From: Candidatus Methylomirabilota bacterium
GTDB taxonomy: Bacteria; Methylomirabilota; Methylomirabilia; Methylomirabilales; CSP1-5
DNA length: 64,000 nt
Reading direction: 5' to 3'
Assembly: GCA_027293415.1 (NCBI GenBank)
Contig: JAPUFX010000102.1
Coordinates: forward strand, 4,803 to 68,802
The position numbers and the translations under genes are program-made. The notes under the pieces are model-generated. The model saw only the letters and a program-made list of their open reading frames with translations. It had not been told where the DNA came from and did not search any database. Positions within the stretch are counted from its first letter, which is position 1; the number at the start of each line of letters is the position of its first letter. Positions 21,393-25,337 of the stretch are shown piece after piece.

Positions 21393-22406
21393 ATGGGGGA
21401 GCGGGTGGCTGTCAAAGATCTGAAGCTCAACGAGACTGTGACCTCATTCTTTTTGGTACGAAATCCTCAACACCGCCTCCGCAAGACGGGCGAACCCTTC
21501 TTAACCCTCCTCGTGGCAGATCAGACAGGTGAACTCCCGGCGGTGATGTGGGAAGACCTGGAAGAGGTCGGAGAGCGGATTCGAGAGGGGGATCTGGTAA
21601 AGGTACAAGGCATCGTCGGAAGCTATCAGGGAGAGATGCAGCTCACCATTCACCGGCTGCGCCCAGCTCGAGAGGGCGAGGCCGCTTTGGAAGATTTTCT
21701 GCCCACCACCGAAGCGGATGTAACCTCGTTGCTCGCCTTTCTCCAGGAGACGGTCAACACTTTCACGAGCGAACCCCTGAAGCAGCTCCTTTCTCGGATT
21801 TTTGAGGGGGAGGGTTTTCGCGAGGCCTTTGCCGGTGCCCCAGCAGCCAAAGGACTCCACCATGCGTACCTGGGAGGTCTACTGGAGCATACGGTGTCCG
21901 TGGTGCAGCTGTGCGAAACCATCGCCGCTCACTATGGGGAGGCGGTCGATCGTGATTTGCTCCTCGCCAGTGCGATCCTGCATGACGTGGGAAAGATCTT
22001 TGAACTCACGTGGGATCGTGGGTTCGATTACTCCGATGAGGGGCGGCTTCTCGGTCACATTACGCAAGGAGTGCTGTTTGTAGAGGAGCAGATTCTGCAG
22101 ATCCCCGATTTCCCGCCTCTGGTGCGGATGGAGCTGTTGCACAACATCCTGAGCCATCACGGCCAGTACGAGTGGGGGTCGCCGCGGCGACCAAAAACGT
22201 TGGAAGCCCTGATTCTCCACGCGGTGGAGAACCTGGATGGGAAAGTCAACCTCTTCTTGAAGCTGGCCAAACGCCACCCCGATCCCCACCGGGAGGGCTG
22301 GACCATCTTTCACCGGAGCTTCGAGCGTCCCCTATTCTTTGGGGAGGCAGACTTGTCCAAGGGGAGTACTGGGGGTGACACGGGAGGAGCCATGAGTACC
22401 CCATGA
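21393..22406 (+). CDS. OB-fold + HD-domain protein, YhaM-like 3'-5' exoribonuclease
   Basis: ORF 21246..22406. I chose ATG 21393, which follows a gggaagagag RBS. An N-terminal OB-fold region is followed by HHAYLGGLLEHT and LHDVGK HD motifs. Confidence 0.75.
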   Translation: MGERVAVKDLKLNETVTSFFLVRNPQHRLRKTGEPFLTLLVADQTGELPAVMWEDLEEVGERIREGDLVKVQGIVGSYQGEMQLTIHRLRPAREGEAALEDFLPTTEADVTSLLAFLQETVNTFTSEPLKQLLSRIFEGEGFREAFAGAPAAKGLHHAYLGGLLEHTVSVVQLCETIAAHYGEAVDRDLLLASAILHDVGKIFELTWDRGFDYSDEGRLLGHITQGVLFVEEQILQIPDFPPLVRMELLHNILSHHGQYEWGSPRRPKTLEALILHAVENLDGKVNLFLKLAKRHPDPHREGWTIFHRSFERPLFFGEADLSKGSTGGDTGGAMSTP

Positions 22407-22570
22407 TGGGCGAGGACTCCAATACCCGCTTGCCTTTGAAGGCCCTCCTGTTACGGAAACCCTATTTCTACCGGAAAGAGATCACTTTCCTTCCTGAGGA
22501 TTGGCCACCTCTGTTCAAGCAGCCTATCACCCGAGGAGAGATATCTTTTGATGGCAGCTTATTTTTTTGA
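22403..22570 (+). CDS. Hypothetical 55-aa ORF (MMGEDSNTRLPLKALLLRKPYFYRKEITFLPEDWPPLFKQPITRGEISFDGSLFF)
   Basis: Found by hand because it is below the ORF-track cutoff. Its ATG overlaps the yhaM-like stop (ATGA). There is no recognisable motif and no clear RBS. Confidence 0.2.
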   Translation: MMGEDSNTRLPLKALLLRKPYFYRKEITFLPEDWPPLFKQPITRGEISFDGSLFF

Positions 22571-22588: not shown

Positions 22589-22618
22589 TTGACAAAAAGC
22601 TATCGCTTGATGTATTTA
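22589..22618 (+). promoter_or_regulatory. Sigma-70-type promoter in an AT-rich spacer upstream of the wHTH-MNT/HEPN pair
   Basis: TTGACA, 18 nt, TATTTA, within the most AT-rich stretch of the window. The ATG at 22642 follows a GGAG RBS. Confidence 0.45.
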
Positions 22619-22641: not shown

Positions 22642-23202
22642 ATGTTGGTTCAACTATTTTCGTCCGAAACCCGAGTAGCAATGCTCGAGTTATTCTTGAC
22701 CCGGCCGGACCAACGGTTCTACGTGAGGGAAATTGCCCGAGAGCTTCGACGCGATATCTCGGGAATTAAGCGGGAGCTAGATAATTTGGAAAAGGCAGGC
22801 CTGCTGACGAGCACGAAGGTTGGCAATCTCCGGTATTACACTGTCGAGAAGTCCTTTCCCCTGTATCCAGAATTGAAGGCGATCATCGATAAGACCCGTG
22901 GAATACCTCAGGCGATTGGCGAGGCGCTTCGGGGTATTTCAGGAATCCGGACCGCATTCATCTTTGGCAACCATGAGGCCACTCAGGGAGAAGCCATTGA
23001 TGTGTTAGTGGTGGGGCGCGCCCACATGGCTCGATTAAATCGGGTCGTGGCGGATCTGGAGTTGCGCCTCGGGCGGAGTGTCAATTACCTGGTCTTTGAC
23101 GAGGGCGAGTATCAGCGGCGGAAGACAGAGGGAGATCCTTTCCTGCGGGAGGTGCTACAGGGAAGGACCACTCTGCTGATCGGGACAGCGCATGATCTTT
23201 GA
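22642..23202 (+). CDS. ArsR-like winged-helix fused to a minimal nucleotidyltransferase (MNT)-like domain; putative antitoxin/regulator
   Basis: The N-terminal R..ML.LF......FYVREIAREL......IKRELDNLEKAGLL is wHTH-like. The C-terminal AFIFGNHEATQGEAIDVLVV aligns with the MNT GSxxRG..DxD region, but the Ser and one Asp are missing. Confidence 0.7.
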   Translation: MLVQLFSSETRVAMLELFLTRPDQRFYVREIARELRRDISGIKRELDNLEKAGLLTSTKVGNLRYYTVEKSFPLYPELKAIIDKTRGIPQAIGEALRGISGIRTAFIFGNHEATQGEAIDVLVVGRAHMARLNRVVADLELRLGRSVNYLVFDEGEYQRRKTEGDPFLREVLQGRTTLLIGTAHDL

Positions 23203-23641
23203 ACACCTAAAGGCGAAAGGGCTGGTAGAAGCGGTGGCACCCGACTTGCACCGGGGGAGCCGTCTAATGGCAAGGGCTCACAAAGACCTGAAGACCGCTC
23301 AGGCCATGGTGGGAACCGATCCGGAATGGGCTTACCTCATTGCCGCCCATGCTATTCTCCGAGCAGCCCGGGCCCTCGCGTTGGTAGAGGGCCTTCGTCC
23401 TCGGGGGCGGGAGCAGGCACGAACGCTCCTCCAGATGGCGGGGTACCTTGTCGGTGAAGGCGAAGCTTCGATGGTGAACGACCTTGACCAAGTGCGAAAG
23501 AAAGGGCAGCATTTTTTGGAGGCGGCAGATCGGCCGATTTCTCATTATGAGCTAGAGGCAACGCTGAATCTCGCAGAGCACTTAGTCGGAGTCGTGACCA
23601 AGCACGTCTATGCGAAAGAGCTTCAGATGCCGTTATTGTGA
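23192..23641 (+). CDS. HEPN domain protein (putative RNase toxin of an MNT/HEPN pair)
   Basis: It overlaps the upstream gene by 11 nt. The protein is helical, with A..DL..A near the N-terminus and an Rx4H motif (RKKGQH) near the C-terminus. Confidence 0.7.
   Translation: MIFEHLKAKGLVEAVAPDLHRGSRLMARAHKDLKTAQAMVGTDPEWAYLIAAHAILRAARALALVEGLRPRGREQARTLLQMAGYLVGEGEASMVNDLDQVRKKGQHFLEAADRPISHYELEATLNLAEHLVGVVTKHVYAKELQMPLL
23235..23250 (+). promoter_or_regulatory. Exact match to the sigma-54 -24/-12 consensus (TGGCAC-N5-TTGCA), inside the HEPN coding sequence
   Basis: tggcac ccgac ttgca, read directly from the sequence. No enhancer-binding protein gene lies adjacent. rpoN is 4 kb downstream. Confidence 0.3.
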
Positions 23642-23695
23642 GATCCCCCGGACAGGGTCGCGGGGGAAGATTCCGAGGAAAGGGGGTGAGAAAGA

Positions 23696-23773
23696 GTGGC
23701 CAAGAAGAAAAAGAAAGCCGCAGGCAAAGCCAAGAAGGCAGCCAAGAAGAAAACCACCAAGAAGAAGAAATAG
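23696..23773 (+). CDS. Micro-ORF 1, 25 codons: (M)AKKKKKAAGKAKKAAKKKTTKKKK
   Basis: GTG start 5-8 nt after the SD-like AAGGGGGTGA, ending at TAG. Duplicated with a conserved leader. Below the ORF-track cutoff. Confidence 0.4.
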   Translation: MAKKKKKAAGKAKKAAKKKTTKKKK

Positions 23774-23830
23774 GAGCGATACCTCACAAGGTCGCGGGTA
23801 AAGACCTGCGAGGAAAGGGGGTGAGAAAGG

Positions 23831-23902
23831 GTGGCAACGAAGAGGAAAGCTGCAGCAAAGAAGACGAAGGCCAAGGCTGCCCCCAAGAAGAAGAAGAAAT
23901 AG
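23831..23902 (+). CDS. Micro-ORF 2, 23 codons: (M)ATKRKAAAKKTKAKAAPKKKKK
   Basis: Same SD block and GTG spacing as micro-ORF 1. The length difference from copy 1 is 6 nt, which preserves the frame. Composition is preserved. Confidence 0.4.
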   Translation: MATKRKAAAKKTKAKAAPKKKKK

Positions 23903-23911
23903 GGGTGCCTC

Positions 23912-23940
23912 GCTGGGGGGAAGTCCCCCCAGCTGTCTTC
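23912..23940 (+). terminator. Intrinsic terminator-like hairpin after micro-ORF 2
   Basis: gctgggggg aagt ccccccagc forms a 9-bp GC stem with a 4-nt loop, followed by tgtcttc. Confidence 0.5.
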
Positions 23941-24161
23941 ATAGTGTTATAATCTGCGTCGAAGGAGTTCGTATCATCGGGGCTCGTCGTCAAAAAGAAG
24001 GAAACCGCGAATGAGGGTGGTAGAGGTGCCAGCCACCTGACGATCGCGGACCCAGAAATTTTTCTCTCCTCCCTCAGGGAGTGTGGGAAATTTGTCTTCC
24101 CTGGGCGGCTACGGTATTTTCCTCCCTCGAACGGTCTTCTCCATTTTCCTCTCTTCCGGGT

Positions 24162-25337
24162 ATGGATATGGAATCATTTGTCGGCCTTGACTACTATCGG
24201 GTGAACGAGTTGTACAGTGATGGAGAGCGTTTGATCCGTGACACGGTGCGCGATTTCGTCGATGCAGAAGTGCTTCCGATCATCGAGACCCATCACCGGC
24301 AGGGGACATTTCCTGTCGGACTCATCCCCCGCCTAGGCGAGTTGGGAGTCCTGGGAGCCAACCTTCAGGGTTACGGGTGTCCTGGAATTTCTGAAGTGGC
24401 TTACGGACTGATCATGCAGGAGCTCGAACGAGGGGACAGTGGGCTCAGAAGCTTCGCAGCCGTCCAAGGGGCGCTCGTCATGTATCCGATCTACGCCTTT
24501 GGGACAGAGGCGCAGAAGAAGGAGTGGCTTCCTCGCCTTGCCAAGGGGGAAAAGGTCGGGTGCTTCGGCCTCACCGAGCCCGACCACGGATCCGACCCTG
24601 AAAGTATGGTAACGAAGGCTATCCGAAGGGGCGATGACTACATCCTGAATGGGAGCAAGCTGTGGATTACCAATGGGACGATAGCTGATGTTGCAGTGGT
24701 TTGGGCGCGGACCGACGAAGGAATTCGGGGCTTCTTGGTGGAAAAGGGGACACCGGGGTTCACCGCGAGGGAGATCCATGGGAAGTTCTCCTTGCGAGCC
24801 TCCGTGACCTCCGAACTCATCTTCCAAGAGTGCCCTATTCCCAGGAAAAATCTGCTGCCCGGAAGCGAGCAGGGAGTAAAGGCGGCTTTCATGTGTCTGA
24901 GCCAGGCGAGATACGGCATCGCTTGGGGGGCTGTGGGGGCGGCCATGGCTTGCTACGACGTTGCCCTCAAGTACGCCAAGGCCCGGGTCCAGTTTGGTCG
25001 GCCGATCGCCGCATTTCAGCTGGTGCAACAGAAGCTGGTGTATATGCTCACGGAAATTACCAAGGCGCAGCTTCTGTGTCTTCGGCTTGGCCAATTAAAG
25101 CAAGCAAAACAGATCCATCACACCCAGATCTCTCTGGCCAAGATGAACAATGTGGAGAAGGCCCGGGAGATCGCCCGGCAGGCCCGGGAGATCTTGGGGG
25201 CCGCTGGTATTGTGGATGAGTACCCGGTTATTCGCCATATGCTAAATCTCGAGACGCTGTACACCTACGAGGGGACGCACGAGATCCACACCCTCATTTT
25301 GGGCAGGGACATCACCGGGCTCAGTGCCTTCGCCTAA
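24162..25337 (+). CDS. gcdH: Glutaryl-CoA dehydrogenase (acyl-CoA dehydrogenase family)
   Basis: ORF 24081..25337; I chose ATG 24162. CFGLTEPDHGSDP, WITNG.IADV.VVWAR...G.IRGFLVEKG, and GKFSLRAS closely resemble GCDH signatures. Confidence 0.85.
   Translation: MDMESFVGLDYYRVNELYSDGERLIRDTVRDFVDAEVLPIIETHHRQGTFPVGLIPRLGELGVLGANLQGYGCPGISEVAYGLIMQELERGDSGLRSFAAVQGALVMYPIYAFGTEAQKKEWLPRLAKGEKVGCFGLTEPDHGSDPESMVTKAIRRGDDYILNGSKLWITNGTIADVAVVWARTDEGIRGFLVEKGTPGFTAREIHGKFSLRASVTSELIFQECPIPRKNLLPGSEQGVKAAFMCLSQARYGIAWGAVGAAMACYDVALKYAKARVQFGRPIAAFQLVQQKLVYMLTEITKAQLLCLRLGQLKQAKQIHHTQISLAKMNNVEKAREIARQAREILGAAGIVDEYPVIRHMLNLETLYTYEGTHEIHTLILGRDITGLSAFA

What the first reader, a model, noticed from the sequence alone, without database searches (positions are those of the whole stretch)
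23656..23940. Tandem pair of conserved leaders, each driving a 23-25 aa poly-Lys/Ala micro-ORF
There are two back-to-back units about 135 nt apart.
- Each unit begins ggtcgcggg and carries an identical 21-nt block, cgaggaaagggggtgagaaag. That block is a strong SD-like GGGGGTGA, placed 5-8 nt before a GTG.
- The two ORFs read (M)AKKKKKAAGKAKKAAKKKTTKKKK and (M)ATKRKAAAKKTKAKAAPKKKKK. Both end ...AAGAAGAAGAAATAG.
- The coding parts have diverged by substitutions and a 6-nt, frame-preserving length difference. Both keep the K/A/T/P composition.
- The leader and the last 16 nt are nearly identical between copies. This is what selection on an expressed small ORF would produce.
- A GC-rich terminator hairpin follows copy 2.
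- Both ORFs are below the 60-aa track cutoff and would be missed by routine annotation.

In size and charge they resemble histone-H1-tail-like peptides and the tiny basic ribosomal proteins Thx, bS22 and bL37. That comparison is only an analogy. They sit immediately after an MNT/HEPN pair in a lower-GC islet, so they could instead be a third component of that module.
Basis: partly seen in the sequence, partly recalled or inferred. Interest (0 to 1): 0.62.

Follow-up and report, generated by a model that had tools for sequence, protein, structure and literature searches.

The report
Oligolysine micro-genes in an MNT–HEPN operon
Two unannotated genes for 23-25-residue peptides made almost entirely of lysine and alanine are real, and in NC10 (Methylomirabilis-type) bacteria they form a conserved extra part of a toxin-antitoxin-like nucleotidyltransferase/HEPN operon, suggesting an untested role for genome-encoded polycationic micropeptides.

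Summary
In detail: two about 135-nt units each carry an identical 21-nt block with a long Shine-Dalgarno sequence, a GTG start, a 25- or 23-codon Lys/Ala ORF and a TAG stop. A perfect 10-bp G/C hairpin follows.

The organism is an NC10 (Methylomirabilales) bacterium. Relatives show that the Lys frame is the coding frame:
- Start, stop and SD are kept in 12 lineages.
- Gap-free comparisons give 7 synonymous and 4 non-synonymous changes in that frame, against 1 and 9 in each other frame.
- The Glu-rich frame, which public gene callers annotate as an 88-aa protein, acquires a stop in four haplotypes.

The micro-ORFs (one or two, 13-25 aa, net +8 to +15) always sit directly after a wHTH-MNT gene and a HEPN gene (PADLOC PDC-M05A/B). 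This holds when the HEPN is only 41% identical and the downstream genes differ. Six plasmid-borne homologues outside NC10 lack them.

In the NC10 clade the canonical MNT (GS...DxD) and HEPN (R-x4-6-H) motifs are degenerate, and the locus is syntenic among housekeeping genes.

Best reading: translated distal cistrons of a domesticated MNT/HEPN operon that act through bulk positive charge, probably on nucleic acid. Expression and function are untested.

The parts
22589..22618 (+). Putative operon promoter: perfect -35 TTGACA (22589-22594), 18-nt spacer, weak -10 TATTTA (22613-22618) preceded by TG
   Evidence: Read from the sequence. The consensus scan did not call it. Inference only.
22642..23202 (+). 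wHTH (ArsR-like) + MNT-like nucleotidyltransferase-fold protein, 186 aa (PDC-M05A type); NT catalytic motif degenerate (FGN...AID)
   Evidence: PADLOC PDC-M05A E 7.6e-43. Pfam HTH_20/HVO_A0114, weak. The AF2 model (pLDDT 89.5) matches ArsR/SmtB repressors in its N-terminal part and MntA chains 6m6w_F and 6m6u_A. Motif comparison.
23192..23641 (+). HEPN-fold protein, 149 aa (PDC-M05B type); overlaps the upstream gene by 11 nt
   Evidence: PADLOC PDC-M05B E 1.5e-06. Pfam HEPN E 0.005, below threshold; homologues carry PF05168. AF2 model pLDDT 88.7; top fold hits are HEPN proteins 2hsb, 3o10, 1wol, 4nqf and 1o3u.
23644..23667 (+). Stem-loop just after the HEPN stop: TCCCCCG-N10-CGGGGGA
   Evidence: In the MFE and centroid fold. 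Present at the HEPN 3' end in the other lineages as ATCCCC[C/A]G...C[G/T]GGGGAT, with a C:G to A:T double change and a C-to-T change giving U.G.
23674..23694 (+). Leader block 1, with the extended Shine-Dalgarno AAGGGGGTGA (23680-23689)
   Evidence: GGAAAGG[G/A]GGTGAGA is found before the micro-ORFs of the 186-aa-type loci (regex).
23696..23773 (+). Micro-ORF K1: GTG start, 25 aa, MAKKKKKAAGKAKKAAKKKTTKKKK, net +15, TAG stop
   Evidence: Orthologues of 20-25 aa in L010, L011, L013 and L014.
23792..23811 (+). Stem-loop before SD 2: UCGCGGGU-AAAG-ACCUGCGA
   Evidence: Predicted. In L011 a G-to-A change turns a G.U pair into A-U; in L013 one pair is broken. Weak support.
23809..23829 (+). Leader block 2, with the extended Shine-Dalgarno AAGGGGGTGA (23815-23824)
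23831..23902 (+). Micro-ORF K2: GTG start, 23 aa, MATKRKAAAKKTKAKAAPKKKKK, net +12, TAG stop
   Evidence: Orthologues of 21-23 aa; the ...AAPKKKK(K) C-terminus recurs in L024, L025, L026 and L018 with synonymous codon differences.
23912..23933 (+). Operon-end hairpin GCTGGGGGGA/TCCCCCCAGC, followed by TGTCTTCATAG
   Evidence: 10 nt, 100% complementary. Unique in the window. Both arms are conserved in sequence in all 12 lineages. Probable terminator or 3' stabiliser; a role as a protein-binding site is not excluded.

Best explanation
The two units are real, translated micro-genes.

**Operon layout (shown or strongly supported).** They are the last cistrons of a four-gene operon:
- a wHTH-MNT-like protein,
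- a HEPN protein,
- K1,
- K2,
- a terminal hairpin.

**Distribution (shown).** The operon is inherited vertically in NC10 (Methylomirabilales and related) bacteria.
- The upstream pair is of the PADLOC PDC-M05 (MNT/HEPN toxin-antitoxin-like) type.
- In this clade the canonical catalytic motifs of both proteins are degenerate.
- The locus sits among housekeeping genes.

**Expression (inferred).** Each micro-ORF has its own very strong ribosome-binding site and a 5' stem-loop. The peptides are therefore probably made in large molar excess over the two proteins.

**Mechanism (inferred).** Selection keeps the composition (only K, A, T, P, R, G), the MA(K/T)K N-terminus, the KKKK C-terminus and the net charge (+8 to +15). 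It does not keep the exact sequence or length. The peptides therefore most likely act as disordered polycations that bind a polyanion. The most probable target is RNA or DNA, bound together with or under the control of the DNA-binding wHTH-MNT-like and RNA-binding-type HEPN partners.

The tandem copy in this lineage arose by duplication and is homogenised by gene conversion.
For: **Coding frame**
- SD, start and stop are kept in every lineage.
- Variable sites in gap-free comparisons: 7 synonymous and 4 non-synonymous in the Lys frame, against 1 and 9 in the +1 frame and 1 and 9 in the +2 frame, the latter including a stop gain.
- A GCC-to-GCT change that is synonymous in the Lys frame creates TAA in the Glu frame in L011, L013, L014 and L015.
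- Paralogue pairs differ only at synonymous sites: two in L028, and in L040 one plus a stop-to-stop change.
- All indels inside the ORFs are multiples of 3. Those outside are 1-2 nt.

**Module membership**
- Micro-ORFs follow the HEPN gene in 12 of 12 NC10 lineages, with HEPN identity from 100% down to 41%. Downstream genes are of at least three kinds: acyl-CoA dehydrogenase/lptC, DUF362/CoA-transferase, and aldehyde dehydrogenase/OCD.
- Six plasmid-borne PDC-M05 homologues in Proteobacteria and Actinobacteria have none.

**Identity of the pair**
- PADLOC hits and fold matches.

**Degenerate motifs**
-.

**Composition and charge**
- 25 distinct peptides analysed.

**Gene conversion**
- In L013 and L014 the 5' end of ORF1 has the ORF2-type sequence.
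Against: - There is no expression, peptide or transcript-end evidence.
- AAG-rich DNA slips in units of 3, so in-frame indels are partly a mutational bias.
- Substitution counts are small.
- All positive lineages belong to one phylum, so they are not fully independent.
- The charge-based mechanism rests on composition alone.
- The NC10 HEPN keeps many invariant Arg residues (R57, R69, R73, R77, R102). The pair could therefore still be enzymatically active through non-canonical residues.
- Co-transcription is inferred from spacing and the lack of an intervening terminator.
Confidence: 0.5

Rival explanations
1. The peptides are translated, but are functionally independent of the MNT/HEPN pair. 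They would be a free-standing tiny basic protein, such as a nucleoid- or ribosome-associated polycation like an H1 tail, Thx, bS22 or bL37, that merely shares the transcript and terminator.
For: Size and charge resemble these proteins. The strong SD suggests high expression. The neighbourhood includes rpoN and hpf.
Against: The linkage to the HEPN gene survives changes of every other neighbour and 59% protein divergence. Peptide length (13-25 aa) and sequence change even between strains whose HEPN proteins are identical, which is unlike a protein fitted into a ribosome. There is no NCBIfam or Pfam match.
Confidence: 0.2
2. The pair is an active toxin-antitoxin or anti-phage system (PDC-M05), and the oligolysine peptide is its effector, toxin or third regulatory component. 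Examples would be a membrane- or nucleic-acid-damaging polycation, or a translational sensor made of Lys codons that reports tRNA-Lys or ribosome status to the HEPN protein.
For: HMM matches to PDC-M05A and B. HEPN/MNT pairs are type VII toxin-antitoxin systems (PMC7641770). The HEPN anticodon nuclease PrrC targets tRNA-Lys (PMC3710099).
Against: The NC10 clade lacks GS...DxD in the MNT part. The HEPN motif Arg is replaced by Gln or Glu, and His107 is not conserved. The locus is syntenic among housekeeping genes rather than in a mobile island. The motif-intact homologues on plasmids have no micro-ORF. PDC-M05 itself has not been validated (PMC12988326).
Confidence: 0.15
3. The region is not translated in the Lys frame. 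Either it is a purine-rich (AAG)n-like non-coding element whose ORFs are incidental, or the true product is the Glu-rich 88-104-aa ORF (23638/23686-23952) that public gene callers report.
For: All three frames of purine-rich DNA tend to be open. Gene callers annotate the Glu frame (P0001, 88 aa, 14 member sequences). The ORF bodies are hypervariable, like a microsatellite.
Against: The Glu frame is cut by TAA in four haplotypes (P0002 and P0004 end early). It has no conserved SD or start. Only the Lys frame keeps SD-N6-start and a stop in all lineages. The substitution pattern favours the Lys frame. About 40% of codons are GCN, ACN, CCN or GGN interspersed among the AAG codons, and they vary synonymously.
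Confidence: 0.07
4. The micro-ORFs are Lys-rich leader peptides of an attenuator that controls the downstream acyl-CoA dehydrogenase/lpt genes through the hairpin that follows ORF2.
For: The Lys-rich ORF ends 9 nt before a strong hairpin, so a terminating ribosome would reach its base. The downstream gene is an acyl-CoA dehydrogenase.
Against: The downstream genes differ between lineages while the micro-ORFs and hairpin stay with the HEPN gene. In L040 the hairpin lies 130 nt from the stop. No alternative antiterminator pairing was seen. Tandem ORFs each with their own SD are not attenuator-like.
Confidence: 0.05

Closest known systems
HepT/MntA (HEPN/MNT) type VII toxin-antitoxin systems (PMC7641770)
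   Same: An adjacent, overlapping MNT-fold gene followed by a HEPN-fold gene. The model of the upstream protein matches MntA chains and the downstream one matches HEPN structures.
   Different: The MNT part is fused to an ArsR-like wHTH. The GS...DxD and R-x4-6-H motifs are not conserved in the NC10 clade. One or two oligolysine micro-genes are appended. The chromosomal context is syntenic and housekeeping.
PADLOC candidate defence system PDC-M05 (nucleotidyltransferase M05A + HEPN M05B; PMC12988326)
   Same: Both proteins hit the PDC-M05 models, A at E 7.6e-43 and B at 1.5e-06.
   Different: PDC-M05 is described as a two-gene, unvalidated, archaea-enriched candidate. Six bacterial plasmid homologues examined here have no micro-ORF. 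The NC10 version has extra cistrons and degenerate motifs.
Lys/Ala/Pro-rich histone-H1-tail-like bacterial proteins (AlgP, Hc1/Hc2, C-terminal tail of mycobacterial HupB); from general knowledge
   Same: K/A/P/T composition and the AAPKK-type motif. Presumed electrostatic binding of nucleic acid.
   Different: Those are tails or proteins of about 100 residues or more, with repeats. Here the whole product is 13-25 aa and is encoded as separate cistrons. No homology could be tested.
Tiny basic ribosomal proteins bS22, bL37 and Thx (bS22: PMC10081302)
   Same: Size of about 20-35 aa and very high pI.
   Different: Those are Arg-rich and conserved in sequence and length. The peptides here have almost no Arg and no aromatic residues, and they vary in length between strains. 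No family match.
Amino-acid-rich leader peptides of transcription attenuators (his, leu, thr and similar operons); from general knowledge
   Same: A short ORF dominated by one amino acid, followed by a G/C hairpin.
   Different: The linkage is to the upstream genes, not the downstream ones. There is no alternative-pairing architecture. The copies are tandem, each with a strong SD.

Membership tests
HEPN/MNT (HepT/MntA) type VII toxin-antitoxin | Minimal nucleotidyltransferase fold in the first gene product | tested here: met
   The AF2 model (pLDDT 89.5) aligns over 99-104 columns with MntA chains 6m6w_F and 6m6u_A. It also aligns with plasmid 'nucleotidyltransferase domain-containing' homologues.
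HEPN/MNT (HepT/MntA) type VII toxin-antitoxin | Catalytic GS-X(9-11)-DxD motif of the MNT | tested here: not met
   The window protein has FGN...AID. Other NC10 members have PIR, AIR or ALD. The plasmid homologues keep GS...D[VI]D. None of these positions is invariant among 30 NC10 sequences.
HEPN/MNT (HepT/MntA) type VII toxin-antitoxin | HEPN fold in the second gene product | tested here: met
   AF2 model pLDDT 88.7. The top PDB matches are HEPN proteins 2hsb (TM 0.80 on the target), 3o10, 1wol, 4nqf and 1o3u.
HEPN/MNT (HepT/MntA) type VII toxin-antitoxin | Conserved R-x4-6-H RNase motif | tested here: not met
   The window protein reads RKKGQH, but the His is R, T or M in other NC10 members. 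The position that aligns with the plasmid homologues' RNxxxY Arg is Gln or Glu. R102 is invariant, so non-canonical activity cannot be excluded.
HEPN/MNT (HepT/MntA) type VII toxin-antitoxin | HEPN toxicity neutralised by MNT-catalysed AMPylation | not testable with these tools
   Needs biochemistry and genetics.
PADLOC PDC-M05 candidate defence system | Both components match the M05A and M05B profile HMMs and are adjacent | tested here: met
   E 7.6e-43 and 1.5e-06. The genes overlap by 11 nt.
PADLOC PDC-M05 candidate defence system | Embedded in defence islands or mobile DNA | tested here: not met
   The order AMP-ligase, OB/HD, pair, acyl-CoA dehydrogenase, lptC/A/B, rpoN, hpf is conserved in loci with HEPN identity down to 66%. 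The plasmid homologues, by contrast, sit beside integrases, MazEF and AbiE.
PADLOC PDC-M05 candidate defence system | Protection against phage | not testable with these tools
   Not validated for PDC-M05 in general (PMC12988326).
Tiny basic ribosomal proteins (bS22, bL37, Thx) | Sequence-family membership, with conserved length and sequence | tested here: not met
   No NCBIfam or Pfam hit at E up to 5-10. There are 25 distinct peptides of 13-25 aa, varying between strains.
Tiny basic ribosomal proteins (bS22, bL37, Thx) | Physical presence in the ribosome | not testable with these tools
   Needs ribosome purification or cryo-EM.
Attenuator leader peptides | Constant linkage to a regulated downstream operon, with alternative terminator and antiterminator pairings | tested here: not met
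   The downstream genes differ. The fold shows independent hairpins only.
Protein-coding small ORF (generic) | One frame preserved with ribosome-binding site, start and stop, and an excess of synonymous change | tested here: met
Protein-coding small ORF (generic) | Direct evidence of translation | not testable with these tools
   No Ribo-seq or proteomics was available. None of the 10 peptides looked up is in a 15-billion-protein collection.

The most novel reading that the evidence does not exclude
The oligolysine peptides are the functional output of the operon. An ancestral MNT/HEPN toxin-antitoxin or defence pair lost its enzymatic motifs and was repurposed in NC10 bacteria as the regulator, chaperone or nucleic-acid-targeting scaffold for abundant genome-encoded polycations of 13-25 aa. 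These peptides would compact, shield or phase-separate RNA or DNA. That would make them the smallest known ribosomally made nucleic-acid-binding 'histone-tail' peptides, and the first three-part MNT/HEPN system with a micropeptide partner.
Probability: 0.25. Interest if true: 0.8.

Novelty: new variant of a known kind. Interest (0 to 1): 0.64.

Why it matters
HEPN/MNT pairs are considered the most abundant toxin-antitoxin-type modules in prokaryotes, and PDC-M05 is a widespread but unvalidated defence candidate. A phylum-wide version that has lost the canonical catalytic motifs and gained oligolysine micro-genes would be a clear case of such a module being domesticated for another purpose. It would also add a micropeptide partner that no annotation pipeline sees. 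Public gene calls either skip the region or annotate the wrong, Glu-rich frame. The find also gives a concrete, testable example of selection acting on the charge and composition of a 13-25-residue peptide rather than on its sequence.

Tried and rejected
- **Glu-rich 88-104-aa ORF as the real gene.** Rejected: it acquires stops in four haplotypes and has no conserved start.
- **Scattered intergenic repeat.** Rejected: the block, the hairpin and Lys-rich ORFs are each unique in the window.
- **Known RNA family.** None at gathering score. The best sub-threshold hit in 23500-24250 scores 21 bits against a cut-off of 58.6.
- **Known protein family for the peptides.** No NCBIfam or Pfam match. Exact look-up of 10 peptides found none in the collection.
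- **Leader pattern scans.** The genome collection gave one Methylomirabilis species representative. The metagenome collection gave one true locus (L015) plus two chance hits (L016, L017). Those two are ordinary genes with the same strong SD, so the leader core is essentially a consensus SD.
- **Literature.** Searches on HEPN with lysine-rich or small ORFs, on Methylomirabilis small proteins, and on lysine-rich bacterial small proteins found nothing describing this arrangement.
- **Acidic partner hypothesis.** The two proteins have net charges of +3 and +1, so simple charge neutralisation of an acidic partner is not supported.
- **Codon-position count on a nucleotide alignment.** Variable columns at positions 3, 2 and 1 numbered 15, 9 and 4. 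This is only a modest bias, because alignment of the low-complexity ORF bodies is ambiguous. The gap-free comparison is cleaner.
- **Other window matches to AAGGRGGTGA.** The three other matches lie inside larger ORFs and look like chance.

Full report
**1. The observation**

- The 21-nt block CGAGGAAAGGGGGTGAGAAAG occurs exactly twice, at 23674-23694 and 23809-23829. At up to 3 mismatches none of 100 shuffles gave two matches.
- The direct-repeat families are spaced 134-135 nt apart.
- Six nucleotides after each AAGGGGGTGA lies a GTG. It opens an ORF of 25 aa (23696-23773) or 23 aa (23831-23902), each ending AAGAAGAAGAAATAG.
- An in-frame TGA inside the SD closes the Lys frame upstream, so the GTG is the only possible start.
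- A perfect 10-bp hairpin, GCTGGGGGGA/TCCCCCCAGC, lies at 23912-23933. It has no T-run, and the terminator scan does not call it.
- The block, the hairpin and Lys-rich micro-ORFs are each unique in the 64-kb window. The unit is therefore not a dispersed repeat.

**2. Organism and context**

Exact look-up of the neighbouring 149-aa protein found the same locus at 99.6-100% identity in nine public contigs. A leader-pattern scan of one genome per species found a single hit, in a Candidatus Methylomirabilis MAG. Source names for homologous proteins read Methylomirabilales or NC10.

The gene order is AMP-dependent ligase, OB-fold/HD protein, a 186-aa protein, a 149-aa protein, the micro-ORFs, acyl-CoA dehydrogenase, lptC, lptA, lptB, rpoN and hpf.

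**3. Which frame is coding**

Public gene callers annotate the +2, Glu-rich frame as an 88-aa protein (P0001). I used that miscall to retrieve diverged relatives (L010, L011, L013).

- In all relatives the Lys frame keeps SD, GTG and TAG, with products of 20-25 aa.
- In L011, L013, L014 and L015 a GCC-to-GCT change is synonymous in the Lys frame but makes TAA in the Glu frame.
- Gap-free comparisons give the following counts of variable sites (the E and R labels printed by that script are swapped):

| Frame | Synonymous | Non-synonymous |
|---|---|---|
| Lys frame | 7 | 4 |
| +1 frame | 1 | 9 |
| +2 frame | 1 | 9, including the stop gain |

- Paralogous copies within one locus differ only synonymously. 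In L028 the differences are ACG/ACC and GCG/GCA. In L040 they are AAG/AAA and TAA/TAG.
- Indels inside the ORFs are 3, 6 or 15 nt. Those in the flanks are 1-2 nt.

Two caveats apply. AAG-rich DNA slips by triplets anyway, and a column count on the nucleotide alignment shows only a modest third-position excess (15, 9 and 4 at positions 3, 2 and 1).

**4. Linkage to the upstream pair**

Homologues of the 149-aa protein were fetched at decreasing identity.

| HEPN or M05A identity | Loci | Micro-ORFs | Neighbouring genes |
|---|---|---|---|
| HEPN 76% | L018-L023 | two, 19-23 aa | acyl-CoA dehydrogenase, lptC |
| HEPN 71% | L024 | one, 20 aa | contig ends |
| HEPN 66% | L025 | one, 17 aa | 388-aa protein (no Pfam hit on record), lptC, lptA |
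| HEPN 45% | L028, L029 | two, 16 aa | aldehyde dehydrogenase, OCD |
| HEPN 44% | L030 | one, 16 aa | not identified |
| HEPN 41% | L026, L027 | two, 17-18 aa | DUF362, CoA-transferase |
| M05A 62% | L037, L038 | two, 13-14 aa | rhomboid upstream; OCD, aldehyde dehydrogenase |
| M05A 57% | L040 | two, 14 aa | aldehyde dehydrogenase |

Every lineage has one or two Lys-rich micro-ORFs directly after the HEPN gene. Each is preceded by GAA(A/G)GG(A/G)GGTGA and followed by the same G6/C6 hairpin.

Across the 25 distinct peptides only K (59%), A (27%), T, P, R and G occur, apart from one S and one V. Net charge is +8 to +15. The MA(K/T)K N-terminus, the KKKK C-terminus and a recurrent AAPKKKK motif are kept, the last with synonymous codon variation.

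Six plasmid-borne homologues of the 186-aa protein have the HEPN partner but no Lys-rich ORF. They come from Cupriavidus, two Legionella, Sulfuricella, Bradyrhizobium and Rhodococcus, at 27-34% identity.

**5. What the pair is**

- PADLOC profiles identify PDC-M05A (E 7.6e-43) and PDC-M05B (E 1.5e-06).
- PDC-M05 is a nucleotidyltransferase plus HEPN candidate defence system. It is archaea-enriched and unvalidated (PMC12988326).
- The AF2 model of the 186-aa protein (pLDDT 89.5) matches ArsR/SmtB wHTH repressors in its N-terminal part, and also MntA chains. The model of the 149-aa protein (pLDDT 88.7) matches HEPN proteins.
- The plasmid homologues keep GS...DxD and RNxxxY. In the NC10 clade these read GN...AID, PIR or similar, and Q/E...H/R/T/M.
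- None of these positions is invariant in 25-30 NC10 sequences. R102 and several other Arg residues of the HEPN protein are invariant.
- The conserved synteny among housekeeping genes contrasts with the integrase, MazEF and AbiE neighbours of the plasmid versions.

**6. RNA and DNA features**

- A stem-loop lies at the HEPN 3' end: TCCCCCG-N10-CGGGGGA at 23644-23667. It recurs as ATCCCC[C/A]G...C[G/T]GGGGAT, with one C:G to A:T double change and one U.G change.
- A second stem-loop, at 23792-23811, precedes SD 2.
- The terminal hairpin is conserved in sequence, not just in structure, and is followed by a -10-like hexamer. This remains unexplained.
- No Rfam family matches.
- A plausible promoter lies upstream of the 186-aa gene: TTGACA-N18-TATTTA at 22589-22618. 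There is no terminator between the HEPN gene and K1.

**7. Interpretation**

Shown:
- the tandem units;
- preservation of the Lys frame;
- strict linkage to the wHTH-MNT/HEPN pair in NC10;
- absence of micro-ORFs from six non-NC10 homologues;
- degenerate canonical motifs in the NC10 pair;
- absence of the peptides from annotation.

Inferred:
- co-transcription with the pair;
- high translation from the strong SD;
- action as polycations on nucleic acid, in concert with the two proteins;
- concerted evolution of the two copies (the 5' end of ORF1 in L013 and L014 has the ORF2-type sequence).

The rivals, with their weights, are given separately.

**8. Verdict**

This is a real feature. It is a new three- or four-gene variant of a known module type, with an unknown but testable role. 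Interest is moderately high.

Noticed in passing
window 23686-23952 (+2 frame): Public gene calls annotate the Glu-rich frame across both units as an 88-aa protein (P0001, 14 member sequences; truncated forms P0002 and P0004). This is almost certainly a mis-annotation caused by the purine-rich sequence.
   Followed up: yes
window 23912-23953; L018, L024, L025, L026, L028, L030, L037, L040: Both arms of the terminal hairpin keep the same sequence across lineages whose HEPN proteins are only 41-45% identical. A -10-like hexamer follows 6-9 nt later (window CATAGT, then TGTTATAAT at 23945-23953) rather than a T-run. It could be an operator or an RNA ligand as well as a terminator.
   Followed up: partly
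window 23644-23667; L026, L028, L040 (inside the HEPN C-terminal codons KNPQ): A conserved stem-loop lies at the 3' end of the HEPN gene, with one compensatory C:G to A:T change and one U.G change. In the 189-aa-type loci its 5' arm is inside the coding sequence.
   Followed up: partly
L018-L023, L007 against the window: Strains whose HEPN proteins are identical still differ in the micro-ORF bodies by 3- and 6-nt indels, while leaders, SD, termini and hairpins are invariant. The ORF bodies behave like in-frame microsatellites. L007 lacks one GCA (Ala) codon of K2.
   Followed up: yes
window 22403-22570 (+): A 55-aa ORF overlaps the stop of the OB/HD gene by 4 nt, in the 44-46% GC stretch before the operon. 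It is called as a gene in near relatives (L001-L005, L011), has no Pfam match, and was not called in the 76%-identity loci.
   Followed up: no
window 23934-24164: The about 230-nt non-coding stretch before the acyl-CoA dehydrogenase start (ATG at 24165) is well conserved in L010, L011, L013 and L014. It includes a GGTGG...CCACC hairpin around 24016-24037 and pyrimidine-rich repeats (ATTTTCCTCCCT at 24116 and 24143). It has no Rfam match.
   Followed up: no
L016 595-618; L017 396-419: The only other metagenome matches to the leader core are ordinary genes in unrelated contigs that start GTGGC right after the same SD. The core GGAAAGGGGGTGAGA is therefore a generic very strong SD, not a signature specific to the micro-ORFs.
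   Followed up: yes
L031 (Cupriavidus), L034 (Sulfuricella), L036 (Rhodococcus): Motif-intact PDC-M05-type pairs on plasmids sit next to MazEF, tyrosine recombinase or integrase genes and AbiE genes. This is typical mobile or defence context, unlike the NC10 chromosomal locus.
   Followed up: partly
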